DNA of 64,000 nt from Plasmodiophora brassicae. Taxonomy: Eukaryota. Where the stretch lies: NCBI GenBank assembly GCA_036867785.1, contig CP145424.1, positions 806,001 through 870,000 on the forward strand. The letters run 5' to 3'. This document shows positions 23,810 through 59,722 of this stretch, one piece after another. The notes under the pieces are model-generated. The model ran no database searches, was not told the DNA's origin, and worked only from the letters and a program-made list of their open reading frames with translations. Within the stretch, counting starts at the first letter, position 1, and the number at the start of each line of letters is the position of its first letter. The position numbers and the translations under genes are program-made.

Positions 23810-24044
23810 CCTGTACCTAGCCACATTAACAGTAAAATCTATTCAAACTCGGGTTGCCCACCTCACCTGGCTGCATTCCTTGATCATCGGTACACGCATT
23901 ATAGACCGCGGCATTCATTGCCTGTGGACGCCCCGATTTCTAAATATAGCGAGGAAGGCTGCTGGTCGGAATATTTTTGGCTAGGGGCAATTGCGCCGGA
24001 TGACCCGTCGTCAGGCATCGTCGCCTCCCATTTGCAAAACCGCA

Positions 24045-24836
24045 ATGCAGCAAGCGGAGCCTATTCGCCTGGCGGCCTCGATCAGCATTCTCATTATCGG
24101 CGCATTGCATGCTGCAGCGAACGACACCTCCTGTGCGTCATGTGGGAACCCTGGCTGTTGTTTCTACTACCGGGGCGACATGGACTGGGACTACCACGAC
24201 CCCACCGCCATGAACCACACGTTCGACAGGGCGTTTGTCGTCAGTCAGCTGTCACGATGGCCGAACTCGACCTCCATTGAGCCGCGTATCGTGTTCACAT
24301 CCGGCGCCATGGGTGCTGGCAAGGGTACCATGCTTCGCAACCGGGCCGCCATGAGCAACGCTAACGTGAGCATCGACCTCGACAACTTCGTCGTGGTCGA
24401 CCCGGACCAATACAAGATCGACCTGCTTCGCGTCCACGGAGTCCCGCTTCAGGAACATTCAGCGCGAGCCGGCCACTTCCACAGACAGAGCGGATACCTG
24501 CAGGAGCTGGTCGTCGACGCAGCCCTGAACTGCAGCCGTAACATCGTCGTGGACGGTTCACTTCGCAATTACGCCTGGAACCACGAGCTGTTCCTCAGGA
24601 TTCGACGCAACCACCCGCAATACCGTATCGAGATCCTGTACGTCTACGCGTCACTGTCGACAGCCAAACGACGAGCCGCGGAACGCCCCGGACGCGCAAT
24701 CACAGTGCCAGGCCTCGTGGAACGATCGTTCAACGAAAGCGCTTATGCAGTCCGGCACCTAACGCGCCTGGCCGACAGCGTTGTCCGCATCGACAATGAA
24801 GAAGGGAAGCCCATCCAAATAACTAAACTTAAATAG
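24045..24836 (+). CDS. Zeta-toxin-like P-loop kinase with N-terminal signal peptide or anchor
   Basis: IVFTSGAMGAGKGT (Walker A), VVVDPDQYK, NIVVDGSLR, YRIEILYVYA...A.RRA.ER.GR, VVRIDN; hydrophobic LAASISILIIGALHAAA; intronless. Confidence 0.8.
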   Translation: MQQAEPIRLAASISILIIGALHAAANDTSCASCGNPGCCFYYRGDMDWDYHDPTAMNHTFDRAFVVSQLSRWPNSTSIEPRIVFTSGAMGAGKGTMLRNRAAMSNANVSIDLDNFVVVDPDQYKIDLLRVHGVPLQEHSARAGHFHRQSGYLQELVVDAALNCSRNIVVDGSLRNYAWNHELFLRIRRNHPQYRIEILYVYASLSTAKRRAAERPGRAITVPGLVERSFNESAYAVRHLTRLADSVVRIDNEEGKPIQITKLK

Positions 24837-26099: not shown

Positions 26100-26844
26100 G
26101 TTTTACAACCGACCTGGCACGTGTAGAAACTATAAGTGATATGGCGTCGATCGATGTAAGGCTCCGCACTGTTGATTGTGGTCGTCTGCAAGTAGACAGA
26201 CGCAGAGAGGCGCATGGCAGAGTTGGGGAATGTCAAACTTACGTCTAGCAACTTTCGTATCGCTCGGAATGTTCTGGACACGAACTGATCTGCGGACTGA
26301 GCAATCCTCTGTTGTTGTGGCGTTGTCGGTGTCATGCCGAGCGCACCCAGCACGCGTTCCTGATCGCGTACCCAGATCCTATGCGACGTGTCGATCGCGT
26401 ACCCAGTTCCTAGGCGACGTGTCGCGTGCCAAGGTGCCCACGCGACCCTACCCAGGGTCCCTGGATCACTCTCGTTGTTGTCGATACATCACGTTCCACG
26501 CAGTGCTATGTGCGTTCCTGTAGCGTTCGGGCGTTGCCCACGTCTTCAGTCGGGGCGGATCGCAATCTGGACAGGGACATGAGGACGGGCAGCCGTAAAC
26601 ACGGCATGCAGGAGGGAACTGCGGGACAAGGTAGAACGATTTGGGGAGGAACCGAGGTCTGGAGCAACGGGCCGTGGAGGTTCGAGTATGTATGGCCTAC
26701 AAAGTTGTATTTCATCGTTTGTACCCGAACCTCGTCGCCTCGTCGTTCCCGAGTTCGAGTCAATGACCTGCAATAGAGAGCTCCACTGGGGGGAATACGA
26801 TCTACATATCATCACGTGCGTATGTGTGTGTGTGCGTGTGCATG

Positions 26845-28905
26845 TCACCAGACGTCGCCGCAGGTGCAGGACCCGTCCTGGAAATGATGTGCGAGGCTCC
26901 CGTCCCGAATCATGATCGGTCGCTTGTAGACGACGGAGACGTGTTTGACGGCCGCATGGCAGTCGTCGCACATCGGGCGGTTCTTGGCGGCGCGGATCGG
27001 CGCCCCTGCCGGCGACGAGCGCAGAGCGTACGCCAGCGCGATCTTGACGCTGTGCATCTCGACCGACTCGCGCGCCTCCTCCGCGCCGCTGGTCGGCTTC
27101 GTCGTCATGGCCATGTCCGGCGCGTACCCGACCTGCTCGATCGCCTCGATCATGTCGCGATGCTGCTGCCGCAGGCCGGCGTCCGATCGCATGCGCTCGT
27201 CGTCGGCGAAGAACAGGGTCGTGCAGCCCGACAGCGACAGCGTCGTGCGCCCCGGCGACGTCGTCAGGCCCCGCGCCGTCATCTCCTGGCGAACGCGGCA
27301 CATGTCGGCGTGCCGCCGGACGGACGCGTACGCGTTCGACATCATGACGTGGGCGCAGGCCAGGTGCGACGCCGTCTCCGATGCCGGCATCGCCAGGATG
27401 GCCCGGAAGGCGCGTTCGGCGCGCGACACCGCCCTGAACCGGCGGCAGGCGCCCAGCACGGTCATCCAGGAGACGACGTTCGTCGTCGGGGCGCGGGCCG
27501 CCAGGCGCTCGGCCTCGGCCAGGTCGCCGAGGACGGCGTGCAGGCGTATCAGGCAATTCGTGTGGACCGTGCCGGCCGCGACCTGCCAGGCGCCGGCGAA
27601 CTCGTCGAGCAGGGCGCGGGCGCGTCCGGCGTCGCGCGTCTGCACGCAGGCGTTGAGCAGGGCGACGAGCGTGACGTCGGTCGGGCGCAGGCCCGCCGCC
27701 TTCAGGTGGGCGAACAGGGCGAAGGCGCGCGGCGCCGTCGCCTCCCGGCGGCTGCAGGCGGCCATCAGCGCGTTGTACGGGACGATGCCGGGGGAGGAGC
27801 GCGCGCGGAACACGGCCTCGGCCGTCCCCATCTGCCCGCAGGCGGCGTACGCGCCGACCAGGGCGCTGGTGACGGCGTCGTCGTCCAGCAGCATGCTGTC
27901 GCGGGCGTACTCGTGCAGCTCGGCGAGGGCGTCGGCGGCCAGCGCCGGGCCGCACGACGCGACCAGCGCGCTGAACACGGGCACGTCGACGGGGACGCGC
28001 CGGGCGACCATGTCCCGGAACAGGGGCAGGGCGTCGGCCAGGCGCGACGCCCTGCAGAACGCGGCCAGGACCTGCGTGTGGATCTGCATCGACGGCGGCT
28101 GCCCGATGTCGTCCATCAGGCGCAGCGCGCGTCGCGCCTGGTCGAGGCGCCCGTCGGACAGGAGCGCCGCGATCAGGTTGCCGAACAGCGGATAGTTGCC
28201 GTGCGACGCGATGTCGTGCGCCGGCACCAGGCCCAGGAGTTGCTGGGCGCGGTCGGCGCCCACGACCCCGCCCGCTTCCGCACAGCAGGCCGCCAGGGCC
28301 GACACGAGCTTGACGGAGACGAGGCGGGCGGCGTCGGCGACGAGGTCGGCGACCAGGTCCAGGGCGAGGTCCGGGCGGCGCGTCTCCCGGCAGATGCTGG
28401 CCAGCAGGAACAGGATGTCGTGGGACAGCGGCCGACCGCACCGCCCGTACCTGTGCAGGGCGGCGTCGACGAGCGGCGGCCGCGCGTTCAGGCAGGCGCG
28501 CGCGAACGTACAGAACAGGTCGAGGTCGGCGCCGACGTCGACGCCGCGCTCCAGGGCGGCGTCCAGCACGTGCGGCGCCTTGGCGGGCAGGTGCCGCCGG
28601 CAGAACGTCATCATCGACTGGAAGAAGCGCGCGTCCACGTCCAGGCGCAGGTCCATGACGCGCTCGAACACGATCCAGCCGTGCCCGGGCGTCCGGTCCT
28701 GCTTCAGCGTGCTGATGGCCAGCGCCACCGAGGGCGCGCGCACGAACGCGTAGAAGACGGGCTCGGACGTCGGGGGCGGCCCACGGCGATCGCCGGCCCA
28801 GCGCGGCGGCGATCGACGCGAGGGAACGGGCGCGCAGGTGCCGCCGCAACGCACCAGGCGCCGGACGCGTGCGCTCGCGCGGCACAGGACAACGACGAGC
28901 GCCAT
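26845..28905 (-). CDS. Pentatricopeptide-repeat protein with E and DYW-type C-terminal domains
   Basis: PPR repeats (e.g. IHTQVLAAFCRASRLADALPLFRDM, PYNALMAACSR), E domain (SWMTVLGACR...HVMMSNAYA), PG box (SPGRT), HSVKIALAY, KNRPMCDDCH, IRDGSLAHHFQDGSCTCGDVW*; Arg-rich presequence-like N-terminus from the ATG at 28905. Confidence 0.93.
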   Translation of the reverse strand: MALVVVLCRASARVRRLVRCGGTCAPVPSRRSPPRWAGDRRGPPPTSEPVFYAFVRAPSVALAISTLKQDRTPGHGWIVFERVMDLRLDVDARFFQSMMTFCRRHLPAKAPHVLDAALERGVDVGADLDLFCTFARACLNARPPLVDAALHRYGRCGRPLSHDILFLLASICRETRRPDLALDLVADLVADAARLVSVKLVSALAACCAEAGGVVGADRAQQLLGLVPAHDIASHGNYPLFGNLIAALLSDGRLDQARRALRLMDDIGQPPSMQIHTQVLAAFCRASRLADALPLFRDMVARRVPVDVPVFSALVASCGPALAADALAELHEYARDSMLLDDDAVTSALVGAYAACGQMGTAEAVFRARSSPGIVPYNALMAACSRREATAPRAFALFAHLKAAGLRPTDVTLVALLNACVQTRDAGRARALLDEFAGAWQVAAGTVHTNCLIRLHAVLGDLAEAERLAARAPTTNVVSWMTVLGACRRFRAVSRAERAFRAILAMPASETASHLACAHVMMSNAYASVRRHADMCRVRQEMTARGLTTSPGRTTLSLSGCTTLFFADDERMRSDAGLRQQHRDMIEAIEQVGYAPDMAMTTKPTSGAEEARESVEMHSVKIALAYALRSSPAGAPIRAAKNRPMCDDCHAAVKHVSVVYKRPIMIRDGSLAHHFQDGSCTCGDVW

Positions 28906-29091
28906 GACGCCCTGGTCGTCCGCGCAACGACGACGACGACGGCGATCGCACACGGCAGCGGCAGCAGCAGGCAGCAGCGGCGGCGGCGGGCGCTGGCCGC
29001 TATTTCGATCTGCCGACGGCCGCAGCCGTAATGCATTGTGCAGGAGGGGACGGCGCGCGACCCGCACCGCTGTGCCGCCTGCACACGATCC

Positions 29092-31441
29092 ATGGATCCG
29101 CTGCACGGGCCGTCGTCGCTCGTCGGCAACGAGGCGCCGCAGGCCGAGCTAGGCGTGCGCGCGGCGCCGTCGTTCGACGACTACGTCGGGACGCTGGCGC
29201 TGCTGGTCGACGACGTCGCAGTGCAGAGCGTGGAGGCGTGCGCCGACGACATCCAACGCCTGTGGAACGAGGGCCAGCGCGTGCCGGCGTTCCGCGCCGC
29301 CGTCGACCTGGCCGGCACGCTGACGCGCCACACGACGTCGGCGTCGTACCCGGGTCGCGCCTTGCGCATCGCCGACGTCCTCAGGCGGTTCAGCCGACGG
29401 CTACGGGCGCACCTGTCGAGCGGCAGCAGTAAGGTCGAGGTATGTGGTGACCTCCACACGCGCGCATCATCGAACGGGTGTCGCTGATTGCGGTTGGGCA
29501 GACCTGCCGCCGGTGGCTGGCGTTGACGGGCGCCATCTACGGCGTCGTTGCCCGCGTCTACATGGAGACGGCGTTGCTCGACTGCCACCTGGTCGTGGAG
29601 GCGGGCGCGGCCGGCGTGGAGGCGCGCCAGCGTGCTCTGCGGCGCCTCGCACGGTCCTGTCGGGGCATTGCCGACCCCGTCGCCGCCAGCTACGCCCGGC
29701 TGTTCGTCGTGCGCCAGCTGGGCGACGCCGACGACGTCTCCATCGTTGGCGAATGCGCCCACGACCAGATCCGGGGCATGTACCCGCGATGCGATGCGGC
29801 CACGGTGGCCCTGATCGGCCCGTCGCTGACGTGGCAGCTGATGGTCGCCCGGGACCTGCACCCGGCCGTGTTCCCCGGCCTGCTCGACGCCTACCGCGCG
29901 TACTCCAGCGACGCCGCGCTGCTCCAGACGATGCTCGACCTGACGAACGCGGACGTGCTCCTGGACAACGCCGACGCCGTCCTGGCCGTCATCCTGGAGG
30001 TGCACCCGGTGCGTCTCGCTGATGGGGGTGCTCACCCCGTACATGCTGACGCGTGTCTGCCCTACGTAGATCAATGCAGGGCACCTGAAGACGCTCATCG
30101 ACGCAGTGGCGCGGGCGTCGACGGCGCCGGTCACCCCCGCCCTGTTCACCGCGTTGCGTCGCGGTACGCTGCGTTGCCGAACGGGCCATCGTCACGTGAC
30201 GTTGATGTCGTGTCCCCTCCCCGCTAGCCACGATGCGCATGTCGTCCGACGCGTCGATCCTCGAGGCCTGCGCCTGTCTGGCATCGATCGCGGTGACGAA
30301 CGTGTCGCCCCTGACGCCCACGCTCCTCGTCCAGCTTCAGGCCGATGTCGTCGATGCCGCCAGGCGGTGCCGACGCAAGCGCCCCGACACGACGACCGCC
30401 TTGCTGTGCAACGTCCTGGAATCGTTCCTCGACGGGTACCTGGGCGACGACCTGCTCCAGCACCTGGTATGCACACGGCAGCGCCTGCGTCTCGGTCGCC
30501 TGTAGCCGACGACGATGTGCGCCCCAGGATTACTACGCGGGCATCGTCGAGCTCCTGGACGCCGACCGCCAGGCCCAGTACTGGACCCGGATACTCCAGG
30601 GGCAACCGGACCGGGCCGCCTGCGTTCGTCTCGCGGATCGCCTGTCGGGCGGCGGATCACCCGCGCGCCGGGCGCTCCTGGCGTCTGTCGTCGAAAGCAT
30701 GCCCGCCAGCGTCGACGTCGACGACCTGCAGGGGCAGTTGCAGGTCGTCCAGGAGGTCGCGTCGCGCGCTCCCGATCTGGGCGCGCTGCTGACGCGCCGC
30801 GCGCTCAACCTGGCCGTCGCCGCGCATCGCCTCGTCGCTGCCACGAAAGGTTCCAGCGCGTTCACGAGCGACTGCCTGCGGTTCGCTGCGTCAGGTACCG
30901 GGTGGACGGGCCTGTCTGTCTGTCTGGAGGGCACTGCCAGAGCGTATGACATGGGGGCAGGGCTGTCTGATGGGTCGGCGGCGATGGACTACCAGGCGGT
31001 CATCGAGGTGGCGACCGCGACCGGCCACCTGGACCAGGCGGAGGCGACGACCCGGCGCGCGTTCCAGGTCGAGCGCTCCGGTCGGGGCGGATGCGCTGGG
31101 CTGACGACCTCCTCCTCCCGCAGCGTATCGGATCGTGGAGCGCGGGCGACACGCGTCGGATGGTGGGCGTGATGCACGAGCTGGCGCGCCGAACGCAGGA
31201 CGTGTCGCTGCACGAGGCGCTGGGCCGCCTGGGCATCGCCAACGCCGCGTTGATCGTGTCGCTGGTGGCGCTGTTCGATGGGGAACCGCGGGACGACGCC
31301 GTCCGGGCGGCCGAGCAGATCTGGAGGCACGCCGTCTGGGCGCCCGGTCAGCGCGACGCCCTACTCGCCGATGTGCGACGTCGGTCGGTGGCGTGGTGCC
31401 ATCGCCTTCAGGGCTGGCGTCGCGACGACAACGACACGTAA
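29092..31441 (+). CDS. VPS35L: VPS35L (C16orf62)-like retriever complex subunit, multi-exon
   Basis: W..GQRV.A...YPGR..I.DVL..F; ETCRRW...I..VVARVYMETALLDC; L.RL..SCRGIADPVAASYARLF follow the VPS35L N-terminal pattern; divergent and short. Confidence 0.7.
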
Positions 31442-58396: not shown

Positions 58397-59722
58397 ATGG
58401 TGGCCGTGTACAGGCGTGCGGCGCGGCACGCGTCGACATGGGCGGCGCTGGGCATAGTCGATGACCTGTGCAGGGCGCTGGCCCGAGTCGGGTACAAGGC
58501 GCCGACGGAATCGCAGGAAGCGATTGTGCCCGCGCTGCTGGCGTCGCATAGGACGACGGTCGTGTCGGCGCGAACAGGGACGGGGAAGACCCTGGCGGTC
58601 GGCATACCGCTCATGCAACGCATTCTGGATGGGCCGACCAGGTTGCCGCCGTCGACGCTGGTCCTGGCGCCGAACCTGCTTCTCTGCGAACAGACGGCGG
58701 CCGCCCTGAACAAGGTGTACGCCGGCGTCGCCCAGGTGAAGGCCGATTCGCGTCGCCCGTCGTCATTGGCGCGGCCGTTTTCCGCCCACATCCAGGTTAC
58801 AATGCCGTCGATCGCCATGGCGTCCATGCTGGAATCGGGGGCCACCACATTCGATACCGTCGTGGTCGACGAGGCCGACTTCATGATCGCCAATGGTGGC
58901 GGCCAGGGCGACTGCCTTGACAAGGTCCTGACCGGGTGCAAGTACGACCGACTGGTGTTTCTCAGCGCCACTATGCCGGACACACCCGGAAAGTCGCCCG
59001 GCCAGGTCATCCGTCAGAGGTACGCCAAGCAGGCCCACTGGGTCACCATGCCCGACGTCGATCTCGTCATGACACATGTCATCAAGGGGTTCCTCGAAAC
59101 GAACCCGATCACGACGCTCTCTCTGGTCAGCGCCATGCAGGCCTGCCTGCTTCCCGAGGACAAGACGCTCGTCTTCTGCTCCAGCAGCACAATGGCGAAG
59201 TCGATCGTGACGGAGCTGGCCCGGTACAACATTACAGGGCACCTGTTCACGGCTGACGTCGACGTTGACGAACGCAGGGCGCTCCTAGCCAAGTTCAACA
59301 ACGGCGACATCTTCATGCTCGTCTGCACGGACATAGCGTCGCGCGGCATCGATTTCGTCGACGTCGACCATGTCATCCAGGCGCCGCTGGCCAACGACAT
59401 TCTCACGTTCGTCCACCGGCTCGGTCGGGCTGGGCGCCTGGGGCGTTCCGCTCGATGCACGAGCATCTACAGCAACAAGGAGGGACAGTCGCCAGCCCAT
59501 CTCGTCGAAGTCCTGACCAACGGCGGGCCGATATCCAGCGCGTTCAGTCGGAATCGGTCGCTGCGAAAGAAGCTACGAGCGACCCGACTGGAACGCGAGA
59601 AAGCGAAATTGAAGATGATGGGCACGTGGACAACGGCACACAACAGCATCGCGTCGTTGGAAGCCATGGAGACTGTACCATGGGAACCCGAACCAGAATA
59701 CGGGTCACAATCTGATAAATAG
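58397..59722 (+). CDS. DEAD-box RNA helicase
   Basis: PTESQ, ARTGTGKT, DEAD, SAT, LVF, TDIASRGID, HRLGRAGR. Confidence 0.95.
   Translation: MVAVYRRAARHASTWAALGIVDDLCRALARVGYKAPTESQEAIVPALLASHRTTVVSARTGTGKTLAVGIPLMQRILDGPTRLPPSTLVLAPNLLLCEQTAAALNKVYAGVAQVKADSRRPSSLARPFSAHIQVTMPSIAMASMLESGATTFDTVVVDEADFMIANGGGQGDCLDKVLTGCKYDRLVFLSATMPDTPGKSPGQVIRQRYAKQAHWVTMPDVDLVMTHVIKGFLETNPITTLSLVSAMQACLLPEDKTLVFCSSSTMAKSIVTELARYNITGHLFTADVDVDERRALLAKFNNGDIFMLVCTDIASRGIDFVDVDHVIQAPLANDILTFVHRLGRAGRLGRSARCTSIYSNKEGQSPAHLVEVLTNGGPISSAFSRNRSLRKKLRATRLEREKAKLKMMGTWTTAHNSIASLEAMETVPWEPEPEYGSQSDK

What the first reader, a model, noticed from the sequence alone, without database searches (positions are those of the whole stretch)
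26845..28905. Plant-type PPR-E-DYW RNA-editing-factor architecture in a protist, with the catalytic Glu replaced (HSEK to HSVK)
Seen: an intact intronless ORF with PPR repeats, an E domain, a PG box and a full DYW domain ending DVW. The Zn ligands (His, CDDC) and terminal HHF..G.C.C are kept, but the HxE glutamate codon is GTC (Val, 27046-27048), two substitutions from Glu, so a single sequencing error cannot explain it. Known: DYW domains are the C-to-U deaminases of land-plant organelle editing, occur only sporadically in other eukaryotes, and need this Glu. Inferred: a mitochondrion-targeted (Arg-rich leader) pseudo-deaminase that acts as an RNA-binding or processing factor, as partner of an active DYW paralogue, or with altered chemistry. 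It may point to an undescribed editing system or to transfer from a plant.
Basis: partly seen in the sequence, partly recalled or inferred. Interest (0 to 1): 0.82.

Follow-up and report, generated by a model that had tools for sequence, protein, structure and literature searches.

The report
Dead-deaminase PPR-DYW gene in clubroot parasite
This is a real, expressed gene of the clubroot parasite Plasmodiophora brassicae for a plant-style RNA-editing protein whose deaminase lacks its catalytic glutamate, one of about fifty related genes, roughly half with damaged active sites, which hints at an unstudied RNA-editing system in the parasite's mitochondria.

Summary
The ORF at 26845-28905 (minus strand) encodes a 686-aa PLS-type PPR-E-DYW protein. 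It has a full-length DYW_deaminase match (E=1e-24), and the catalytic Glu is replaced by Val (GTC, 27046-27048). Contigs of four sequencing runs from four studies carry the same codon.

The host is almost surely Plasmodiophora brassicae: 19 of 19 named relatives come from it. The gene belongs to a lineage-specific family of 58 representatives that share an N-terminal PPR-like module. Forty of them end in a DYW domain. Of those, 21 keep H-x-E/CxxC, 12 (this one included) lost only the Glu, and 7 lost a catalytic-zinc ligand. All 40 keep the four structural-zinc ligands.

The gene looks transcribed and constrained (1 non-synonymous to 3 synonymous differences between strains), and its DYW domain is otherwise well kept.

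Best reading: a mitochondrial RNA-binding pseudo-deaminase. It most likely recognises a site while an intact paralogue supplies catalysis (ADAT3-like, or like plant E+ proteins with DYW1). Its alternative is an editing-independent role in RNA maturation. A recent transfer from the host plant is not supported.

DYW proteins of this species are already annotated in public databases. The family pattern, and any mitochondrial editing, appear undescribed. Interest is moderate.

The parts
26845..28905 (-). Whole ORF: 686 codons plus the TGA stop at 26845-26847. It has no intron. GC is 73% and GC3 is 95%.
   Evidence: An identical protein is on record in NCBI and Logan.
28759..28905 (-). Residues 1-49: an Arg-rich, acid-poor leader, presumed to be a mitochondrial presequence. 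It is disordered in the model.
   Evidence: 10 R+K against 2 D+E, with the first acidic residue at 39. Most paralogues listed have similar leaders. pLDDT is below 50 for residues 1-47. No targeting predictor was available, so this is an inference.
28195..28758 (-). Residues 50-237: the family-specific N-terminal module, about five divergent PPR-like helical hairpins. Residues at the code positions are non-canonical and are conserved among paralogues.
   Evidence: An HMM of this module finds 58 of 151 representatives at over 130 bits; the next best scores 19.8. No Pfam match lies here. Helix pairs are seen in the model. ESM Atlas features point to PPR clusters, score 0.95.
27478..28194 (-). Residues 238-476: a canonical PPR tract, P, P1-L1-S1, P2-L2-S2, with motif lengths 35, 35, 35, 31, 36, 36, 31. 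Residues at position 5 and the last position: P1 T277/D307, S1 S347/G373, P2 N378/T409, S2 N450/N476.
   Evidence: Pfam PPR and PPR_2. Alignment to the synthetic PLS-DYW 9kfx. Helices of the model. Code positions and their variation among the 40 paralogues.
27256..27477 (-). Residues 477-550: the E1 and E2 motifs.
   Evidence: Pfam E_motif 25.6 bits, under the cut-off of 27.3. The stretch aligns without gaps to E1/E2 of 9kfx. Helices 477-489/493-504 and 515-528/532-544.
26848..27255 (-). Residues 551-686: the DYW deaminase domain with its PG box (P551-G552).
   Evidence: Pfam 86.5 bits. 111.9 bits against an HMM built from 58 intact non-family DYW domains, rank 11 of 40 in the family. Foldseek: 7o4e_B TM 0.87 and 7w86 TM 0.89, both normalised to the target.
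27043..27054 (-). H618-S-V620-K, in place of the HxE(K/R) signature. The Val codon GTC lies at 27046-27048.
   Evidence: It is unchanged in the contigs of 4 of 4 runs.
26956..26970 (-). C646-D-D-C649-H650: the two Cys ligands of the catalytic zinc, followed by the first structural-zinc His.
   Evidence: Alignment to OTP86 and DYW1. Ligand roles come from passages of PMC7611903. H650 is invariant in 40 of 40.
26848..26889 (-). H673 ... C680-x-C682 ... D-V-W: the remaining structural-zinc ligands and the C-terminal DYW motif.
   Evidence: H673, C680 and C682 are invariant in 40 of 40 family members. DVW also ends two intact paralogues; 3 of 40 end in DVW.
26692..29056 (-). Extent of the transcript-like contigs: a 3' end near 26692-26730 and a 5' end near 29022-29056.
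   Evidence: X17 contigs cover 26725-28788 and 28770-29056. The X18 contig covers 26730-29022. Neither run has depth in the outer flanks, where the DNA run X20 continues. The X1 contig starts at 26692 and carries a spliced intron of the neighbouring gene.

Best explanation
Shown: this is a nuclear gene, almost surely of Plasmodiophora brassicae, for a PLS-type PPR-E1-E2-DYW protein. Its deaminase domain keeps the fold, the PG box, the three catalytic-zinc ligands and the four structural-zinc ligands. It has Val where the proton-shuttling Glu must be.

Inferred, general layer (about 0.8): the protein enters the mitochondrion and binds a specific RNA through its PPR tract, but it cannot deaminate cytidine itself.

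Favoured mechanism (the confidence given here): it is the site-recognition, non-catalytic member of a mitochondrial C-to-U editing system. Catalysis is supplied in trans by one of the paralogues that still has H-x-E/CxxC. The dead but folded DYW domain would then serve as a docking or substrate-presenting module. Two known systems work this way. ADAT3, whose Glu is also replaced by Val while its zinc site is kept, serves ADAT2. In plants, E+ PPR proteins use DYW1-type deaminases.
For: - Architecture and fold.
- Loss of Glu is real and stable across 4 runs from 4 studies.
- Alanine at any key HxE/CxxC residue abolished editing in E. coli (passages of PMC6397227). The Glu is described as essential in passages of PMC7611903.
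- The domain is not decaying. It scores 111.9 bits against a profile of intact non-family DYW domains. That is rank 11 of 40, above the median of the intact paralogues (102) and the best of the 12 Glu-less ones (median 87); the Zn-ligand-less median is 57.
- Active partners plausibly exist in the same genome: 21 of 40 DYW-bearing family representatives keep H, E, C, C, and 19 of 19 named family clusters are P. brassicae.
- All 40 keep the four structural-zinc ligands, even those without a catalytic site (mapped). The folded domain itself is therefore under selection.
- Code positions of the P1, S1, P2 and S2 motifs carry canonical T/N/S and D/N/S/T residues and differ among paralogues, as expected of site-specific factors.
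- Constraint and expression: there are 1 non-synonymous (M645L) and 3 synonymous differences between strains, pN/pS 0.12, one-sided binomial p=0.06. The 3' flank shows 8 substitutions plus gaps in 456 bases, against 4 in the ORF. A contig carrying a spliced intron of the neighbouring gene runs through the ORF, and gene-bounded contigs occur in two further studies.
- Precedent for Glu-to-Val with zinc kept in a non-catalytic partner subunit: ScADAT3 Val218 (passages of PMC7713142).
- DYW domains can be recruited in trans in plants (passage of PMC7611903).
Against: - No C-to-U editing has been shown in P. brassicae. I could not compare mtDNA with RNA.
- No partner is identified.
- The canonical PLS tract is short (P plus two triplets), so specificity would be low unless the N-terminal module contributes. 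That module is conserved rather than diversified among paralogues, which suggests a shared function, not a site-specific one.
- The family also holds 7 members without catalytic-zinc ligands, and 18 of 58 representatives without a C-terminal DYW domain. The P. brassicae mtDNA is reported to hold 54 introns (passages of PMC6823432). Both fit an editing-independent RNA-maturation role as well.
- The polymorphism test rests on four differences only.
- Mitochondrial targeting is inferred from composition alone.
Confidence: 0.4

Rival explanations
1. Editing-independent RNA maturation factor. The protein binds a mitochondrial transcript and helps intron splicing, RNA stabilisation or cleavage. The dead DYW domain is kept only as a structural or RNA-contacting appendage, and no active paralogue is needed.
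For: The P. brassicae mtDNA is reported as 114,663 bp with 54 introns, and its annotation was difficult (passages of PMC6823432). 19 of 40 family DYW domains have lost a catalytic residue while all 40 keep the structural zinc site. The median DYW score falls stepwise from intact (102) to Glu-less (87) to Zn-ligand-less (57), as if deaminase-specific constraint relaxes after the loss. A ribonuclease activity linked to DYW1 in vitro is reported (search listing of PMC10318007). Recalled, not checked here: plant DYW proteins CRR2 (RNA cleavage) and PpPPR_43 (splicing).
Against: This particular DYW domain is as well kept as those of intact paralogues, including the PG box and all zinc ligands. That is more than a passive appendage would seem to need. 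From recall: nearly all characterised PLS-E/DYW proteins of plants are editing factors.
Confidence: 0.3
2. Recently disabled gene. The Glu-to-Val change is a fairly young, neutral or slightly harmful loss in a redundant family, and the gene is on its way to becoming a pseudogene.
For: The DYW domain is still nearly as good as intact ones, which a recent loss would also explain. The family is large and may be redundant. No orthologue above 47% identity was found with which to date the change.
Against: The 686-codon frame is intact, and the same codon is present in four runs including a diverged strain. The codon GTC is two steps from GAR, so a synonymous change has followed the replacement. There are 3 synonymous differences to 1 conservative replacement, and the ORF is about nine times less variable than its 3' flank. 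Transcript-like contigs exist. Twelve paralogues independently keep Glu-less domains with all zinc ligands.
Confidence: 0.12
3. Still a catalyst. Another residue takes over the proton shuttle (for instance E616, two residues before the His, unique to this paralogue in the table), or the domain performs other chemistry such as reverse U-to-C editing or RNA cleavage at the zinc site.
For: All zinc ligands are retained. E616 is found at that position only in this member among the rows.
Against: Single alanine exchanges at any key residue of the signature abolished editing (passages of PMC6397227). The domain has a PG box, not the KP form that the listing of PMC11332814 links to U-to-C editing. 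Val is the very residue found in the inactive ADAT3 subunit.
Confidence: 0.05
4. Origin rival: the gene was taken recently from the Brassicaceae host.
For: The parasite lives inside plant cells, and the architecture is plant-like.
Against: The 40 family C-terminal regions plus one fragment form a single clade (SH-aLRT 99) against 63 others. Paralogues share at most 47% identity and have long end branches. The N-terminal module is absent from the plant-like hits. GC3 is 95%. The nearest named outsiders are Balamuthia mandrillaris, Selaginella and Diphasiastrum.
Confidence: 0.03
5. Sequencing or assembly artefact at the codon.
For: None found.
Against: Contigs of four runs from four studies agree. 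A second allele of the protein (M645L) in the protein collection also reads HSVK.
Confidence: 0.01

Closest known systems
Land-plant PLS-class PPR-E-DYW editing factors (e.g. Physcomitrium PPR56/PPR65, Arabidopsis OTP86; synthetic PPR-DYW 9kfx)
   Same: P-L-S motif order and lengths, E1/E2, PG box, DYW deaminase fold, both zinc sites and an organelle-type leader.
   Different: Val replaces the catalytic Glu. It carries a 190-residue N-terminal module found only in this protist family. It ends in DVW. The host is a rhizarian parasite. Activity is untested.
Plant E+/truncated-DYW PPR proteins that use trans-acting DYW1-type deaminases
   Same: Site recognition and catalysis are separated. Trans recruitment is mentioned in PMC7611903. 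The names DYW1, DYW2 and MEF8 as partners are recalled.
   Different: Here the DYW domain is complete and folded but chemically dead, not truncated. No partner is known.
ADAT3 (Tad3), the non-catalytic subunit of the eukaryotic tRNA A34 deaminase ADAT2/ADAT3
   Same: A deaminase-fold pseudo-catalytic domain in which the essential Glu is a Val while the zinc site is kept. It works beside an active paralogue (passages of PMC7713142).
   Different: It is another branch of the deaminase superfamily. It deaminates adenosine in tRNA, has no PPR tract, and its heterodimer is shown. Here a heterodimer is only a hypothesis.
DYW-type PPR proteins of other non-plant eukaryotes (Naegleria, Acrasis, paradinids, Agaricales fungi, rotifers)
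   Same: Plant-type DYW domains occur outside plants, linked to mitochondrial C-to-U editing where it was examined (passages of PMC11946409; PMC13386178).
   Different: The paradinid and fungal sequences reported keep His, Glu and both Cys, and are few (1 and 3 per strain). Here there is a family of 58 representatives with frequent active-site loss.
Glu-less paralogues and a plant counterpart: P0131 (HSVK) and P0150 (HSVI) of P. brassicae; P0267 (HSVK) of Diphasiastrum complanatum
   Same: The same Glu-to-Val replacement, with the zinc ligands kept.
   Different: They share only 39-40% identity (paralogues) or 29% (lycophyte) with this protein. They do not group with it in the poorly resolved family tree.

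Membership tests
PLS-class PPR-E-DYW RNA editing factors | Array of P, L and S type PPR motifs | tested here: met
   Pfam PPR and PPR_2. Alignment to the synthetic PLS-DYW 9kfx, E=1.1e-78. Motif lengths 35/35/31/36/36/31 from the model helices.
PLS-class PPR-E-DYW RNA editing factors | E1/E2 motifs between the PPR tract and the DYW domain | tested here: inconclusive
   Pfam E_motif scores 25.6 bits, below its cut-off of 27.3. Even so, the stretch aligns along E1/E2 of 9kfx and forms two helix pairs. 19 of 40 family members match E_motif at E<=0.001.
PLS-class PPR-E-DYW RNA editing factors | DYW domain with PG box and cytidine-deaminase fold | tested here: met
   PF14432, 86.5 bits over the full profile. 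P551-G552. Foldseek TM 0.87 to 7o4e_B and 0.89 to 7w86.
PLS-class PPR-E-DYW RNA editing factors | Catalytic zinc ligands His ... Cys-x-x-Cys | tested here: met
   H618, C646 and C649 align with those of OTP86 and DYW1. Roles come from PMC7611903.
PLS-class PPR-E-DYW RNA editing factors | Catalytic Glu of the HxE signature | tested here: not met
   V620, codon GTC at 27046-27048. The same codon is in the contigs of 4 of 4 runs.
PLS-class PPR-E-DYW RNA editing factors | Structural zinc site (His, His, Cys-x-Cys) and C-terminal D-Y/F-W | tested here: inconclusive
   The zinc ligands H650, H673, C680 and C682 are present and invariant in 40 of 40. The tripeptide is DVW. In the E. coli assay an aromatic residue was tolerated and Ala abolished editing. 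Val was not tested, but two intact paralogues also end in DVW.
PLS-class PPR-E-DYW RNA editing factors | Site-specific C-to-U conversion in an organelle transcript | not testable with these tools
   No mitochondrial genome or further read mapping was available. No report of editing in P. brassicae was found.
ADAT3-like pseudo-deaminase partner subunits (resemblance in working, not membership) | Deaminase fold with the Glu replaced and the zinc site kept | tested here: met
ADAT3-like pseudo-deaminase partner subunits (resemblance in working, not membership) | Stable complex with a catalytically active paralogue | not tested
   No partner is identified. See Tried and rejected for the one complex job.
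DYW:KP (U-to-C) variant domains | KP-type motif in place of the PG box | tested here: not met
   The PG box is present. The PG/KP distinction comes from the listing of PMC11332814 and from recall.
P. brassicae N-module DYW-PPR family (defined here) | About 218-column N-terminal module directly after the leader | tested here: met
   341 bits for this protein. 58 of 151 representatives score above 130 bits, and the next best scores 19.8.

The most novel reading that the evidence does not exclude
Plasmodiophora brassicae mitochondria may run an undescribed, plant-like C-to-U editing system served by some 40-58 paralogous PPR proteins. In it, live and dead DYW deaminase domains divide the labour. 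Dead ones such as this protein choose the sites, and live ones do the chemistry. That would be an independent re-invention of the plant E+/DYW1 arrangement and of the ADAT2/ADAT3 arrangement.
Probability: 0.3. Interest if true: 0.7.

Novelty: new variant of a known kind. Interest (0 to 1): 0.5.

Why it matters
Clubroot is a major disease of Brassica crops. The parasite's 114.7-kb, intron-rich mitochondrial genome has been hard to annotate (PMC6823432). A family of about fifty DYW-type PPR genes, half with intact deaminase sites, predicts that its mitochondrial transcripts are edited from C to U. If so, gene models built from DNA alone would be wrong. Existing RNA-seq and DNA data could test this directly.

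For the RNA-editing field, the family is a natural series of live, Glu-less and zinc-less DYW domains inside one genome. All of them keep the structural zinc site. That makes it a ready-made data set on what a DYW domain does besides deamination, and on how pseudo-deaminases arise.

For the origin debate, it adds a large, old, monophyletic rhizarian expansion to the sporadic non-plant DYW records.

Tried and rejected
- Whole-genome census: no genome is held for this window. The census therefore rests on the 50%-identity representative library and may include or miss gene-model fragments.
- Rfam scan of the window: no match.
- Taxonomy from a neighbouring DEAD-box helicase: uninformative. The best relatives are at most 33% identical (one short local match reaches 37%), and most are bacterial-type.
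- Search with the N-terminal module alone in the word-indexed collection: only the protein's own cluster and one paralogue were found. This says nothing on its wider distribution.
- RNA runs: 'no RNA holder listed' on record. Expression is argued only from contig shapes and a spliced joint.
- Complex prediction of this protein's E1-E2-DYW part with that of its closest intact paralogue P0004: no verdict (score 0.00, controls not run, alignments not used by the tool). It is not used for or against binding.
- Family tree to count independent Glu losses: star-like, with 2 of 37 inner branches starred. It needs 10 changes for 12 Glu-less rows, which is no better than shuffled labels. Independence is argued from the six different replacing residues instead.
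- Pfam on the two exons of the neighbouring divergent gene: no match.
- Other DYW or N-module genes in the window: none.
- Rejected: a sequencing error, a recent transfer from the host, and the KP-type reverse-editing domain (see the rival explanations).
Dating the Glu loss, because no orthologue was found. A check of the position of E616, because model coordinates are not exposed.
- Supplements were closed. Table S10 of PMC13386178 ('31 DYW in Rhizaria') may list these very genes, and the supplementary tables of PMC6823432 may bear on the mitochondrial gene models.
Full report
**1. What is in the sequence**

The minus strand of 26845-28905 is one open frame of 686 codons, from ATG to TGA. The same 686-aa protein is on record in NCBI and Logan, on a contig of 894,280 bases.

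Pfam finds the following:
- DYW_deaminase over its whole profile (1-93 of 93, residues 593-686, 86.5 bits, E=1.1e-24).
- PPR_2 (63.1 bits) and PPR (45.5 bits).
- E_motif at 25.6 bits, just under its cut-off of 27.3.

The best solved relative is the synthetic PPR-DYW protein 9kfx (E=1.1e-78, residues 279-686). The DYW domains of OTP86 (7o4e) and DYW1 (7w86) align to the C-terminus almost without gaps.

These alignments place the key residues as follows:
- PG box: P551-G552.
- Catalytic-zinc ligands: H618, C646, C649.
- Structural-zinc ligands: H650, H673, C680, C682.
- The position of the catalytic Glu (E894 of OTP86): V620.

Ligand roles are taken from passages of PMC7611903. Residues were checked. 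The Val codon is GTC at 27046-27048.

An AlphaFold2 model built with 40 family sequences is confident (mean pLDDT 89.4, pTM 0.81). It shows a disordered leader (1-47), twelve helical hairpins, E1, E2 and a deaminase domain. Foldseek returns 9kfx first (E=3.8e-26). It matches the C-terminal domain to 7o4e_B (TM 0.87) and 7w86 (TM 0.89), both normalised to the target.

**2. Is the Val real?**

Contigs of 4 of 4 runs laid, from four studies, cover the codon, and none shows another letter. The X1, X17 and X18 contigs carry 0 other letters over the ORF part they cover. X20 is a different strain, with four listed differences in the ORF and none at this codon. A second allele in the protein collection (M645L) also reads HSVK.

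These are assembled contigs, not raw reads.

GAR to GTC takes two changes, but only the first (A to T) changes the residue. The second is synonymous, which suggests that the replacement is not brand new.

**3. Whose gene is it?**

I looked up 21 family clusters other than the protein's own. Nineteen carry names, and all 19 are Plasmodiophora brassicae, mostly 'DYW domain-containing protein'. They lie on contigs of 0.06-2.1 Mb. The other two are unnamed metagenome records.

The runs that hold the stretch are labelled 'plant metagenome' or with two coded organisms. The window has 63% GC, and a neighbouring gene has a 62-base GT..AG intron.

I conclude that the window is P. brassicae, the clubroot parasite (Phytomyxea, Rhizaria).

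**4. The family**

An exhaustive profile search found 11,860 proteins at E<=0.001, and I examined the best 150.

An HMM of residues 50-237 splits them cleanly. 58 of 151 sequences score above 130 bits, and the next best scores 19.8. This N-terminal module has no Pfam match. It is built of helical hairpins, and protein-language-model features place it among PPR clusters (score 0.95). So it is a divergent PPR module specific to this family.

Forty of the 58 end in a DYW domain, and all 40 match PF14432. Their active sites break down as follows:
- 21 keep His, Glu and both Cys.
- 12 lost only the Glu: Val three times, and Thr, Asp, Ala and Pro twice each, Cys once.
- 7 lost a catalytic-zinc ligand.

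Among non-family DYW domains in the same list, 60 of 67 are intact. Family against non-family gives Fisher p=4e-5.

The six invariant columns of the 40-member alignment are C102, H650, H673, G678, C680 and C682. Four of these are exactly the structural-zinc ligands of the OTP86 structure. The family thus sheds catalysis often but never the folded domain.

Against a profile built from 58 intact non-family domains, median scores fall from 102 (intact) to 87 (Glu-less) to 57 (zinc-ligand-less). This protein scores 111.9, rank 11 of 40, the best of its class.

The family tree is star-like, with end branches of about 0.9. It cannot count the losses. The six different replacing residues argue for several events.

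The C-terminal regions of all 40, plus one fragment, form one clade (SH-aLRT 99) against 63 other sequences. The nearest named outsiders are Balamuthia mandrillaris, Selaginella and Diphasiastrum. One Diphasiastrum protein also reads HSVK.

There is no second family member in the window.

**5. Is the gene alive?**

The X1 contig that covers 26692-29437 continues at 29500. It skips 62 bases with GT..AG ends in the divergent neighbouring gene, and the reading frame is kept across the joint (frame worked out). The DNA run X20 lacks this joint. The contig therefore derives from spliced RNA, and it runs through the whole DYW ORF.

In two other studies the contigs are bounded at 26725 and 26730 on one side and at 29056 and 29022 on the other. 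Those runs have no depth in the outer flanks, where DNA continues. The tool's own text rates this as a weak hint.

The strain X20 differs from the window at four ORF positions. Three are synonymous (H673, R573, G360) and one is M645L, giving pN/pS 0.12 and a one-sided binomial p of 0.06. Its 3'-flank contig shows 8 substitutions and 5 gaps in 456 bases.

GC3 is 95%.

Together these speak for an expressed gene under purifying selection, but the numbers are small.

**6. How it most likely works**

Shown: it is a folded PLS-PPR-E-DYW protein with both zinc sites and no catalytic Glu.

Established knowledge:
- Alanine at any key residue of the HxE/CxxC signature abolishes editing in the E. coli system (PMC6397227, passages).
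- The Glu is the proton shuttle (PMC7611903, passages).

Inferred:
- Mitochondrial import, from the Arg-rich, acid-poor leader that most paralogues share. P. brassicae has no plastid (recalled).
- Sequence-specific RNA binding. The P1, S1, P2 and S2 motifs carry canonical code residues: T277/D307, S347/G373, N378/T409 and N450/N476. These positions vary among paralogues, whereas those of the N-terminal module are conserved and non-canonical. From recall of the PPR code, T/D reads G and N/N reads a pyrimidine.

I favour (0.4) a site-recognition role with catalysis in trans from one of the intact paralogues. Three lines support this:
- The dead domain is kept as well as live ones.
- Live ones coexist in the same genome.
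- There are precedents. Plant DYW domains can be recruited in trans. ADAT3 has exactly this Glu-to-Val change with zinc kept, beside the active ADAT2 (PMC7713142, passages).

The main rival (0.3) is an editing-independent role in RNA maturation. It is attractive because the mtDNA is reported to hold 54 introns and its annotation met reading-frame problems (PMC6823432, passages). The family also contains zinc-less and DYW-less members.

A young loss on the way to a pseudogene (0.12), residual or altered catalysis (0.05), recent host transfer (0.03) and an artefact (0.01) are less likely, for the reasons given under the rival explanations.

**7. What is known**

DYW-type PPR proteins outside plants are documented (PMC11946409, PMC13386178; passages). 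A 2026 survey counts '31 DYW in Rhizaria', but I could not see its tables. The 2025 paradinid paper states that C-to-U editing had never been reported in rhizarians before it. It reports 1 and 3 PPR-DYW sequences with all four key residues kept.

The relevant literature searches gave:
- Plasmodiophora with DYW: 2 papers by the search listing. The titles and abstract starts concern host plants; the passages were not read.
- Plasmodiophora brassicae with 'pentatricopeptide': 22 papers by the listing. In the one I read passages of (PMC8298192), there was only a passing mention of differentially expressed PPR genes.
- Plasmodiophora brassicae with 'mitochondrial genome' and 'RNA editing': 11 papers. 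In the P. brassicae mitochondrial-genome paper among them, 'RNA editing' occurs only in a reference title.
- Plasmodiophora with C-to-U: 3 papers. I read passages of one (PMC11589745), and it did not treat editing in this organism. The other two are known from titles and abstract starts only.
- DYW together with phytomyxid names: none of the ten papers listed (of 211 holding at least 2 of the 5 terms) holds DYW.

So the genes are annotated in databases. The family, its N-terminal module, its pattern of active-site loss and any mitochondrial editing appear undescribed in the library I could search.

**8. Verdict**

It is a new variant of a known kind. As a single gene its interest is moderate. 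As a pointer to a testable, unstudied editing system in an important crop parasite, it is worth following up.

Noticed in passing
window 29092-30227 (+): A divergent neighbouring gene starts about 187 bases from the DYW gene's ATG. A 62-base GT..AG intron (29438-29499) is spliced out in an RNA-derived contig of run X1 and keeps the frame. Neither exon has a Pfam match.
   Followed up: partly
window 26842-29031 (+) and other overlapping frames: A 729-aa antisense ORF and several other long ORFs overlap the gene. They are best explained by the extreme GC3 of 95% of the real frame, not by coding.
   Followed up: partly
window 26813-26849: A CA-rich microsatellite lies directly after the stop codon. 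The read-laying tool skipped it as a repeat.
   Followed up: no
window 26268-26541: A short stretch in the 3' intergenic region has up to three times the depth of its surroundings in the DNA run X20 (262.8 against 88.4) and matches pieces of several other contigs. Variants skip 63-105 bases. It contains a 31-base tandem duplication at 26362-26423. It is probably a dispersed, variable repeat.
   Followed up: partly
window 29034-29036 (-): An out-of-frame upstream ATG lies inside the possible 5' UTR. It opens a frame that runs over the main start codon. It is included in the X17 contig but not in the X18 contig.
   Followed up: no
window 24000-24836 (+): An ORF of 278 aa has a Pfam Zeta_toxin domain (PF06414, E=8e-14) in this eukaryotic genome.
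   Followed up: no
window 58397-59722 (+): A DEAD-box helicase ORF (441 aa) has nearest database relatives that are at most 33% identical over most of its length (one short local match reaches 37%). Most of them are bacterial DeaD/RhlE-type.
   Followed up: no
window 54001-56000: There is a strong AT skew (0.328), the highest in the window. It overlaps an ORF with a weak Trichohyalin-plectin-homology match.
   Followed up: no
proteins P0128 and P0294 (paralogues, not in the window): One source labels these nuclear-contig proteins '(mitochondrion)' although they lie on contigs of 1.28 and 2.12 Mb. This is a labelling quirk, not evidence of localisation.
   Followed up: no
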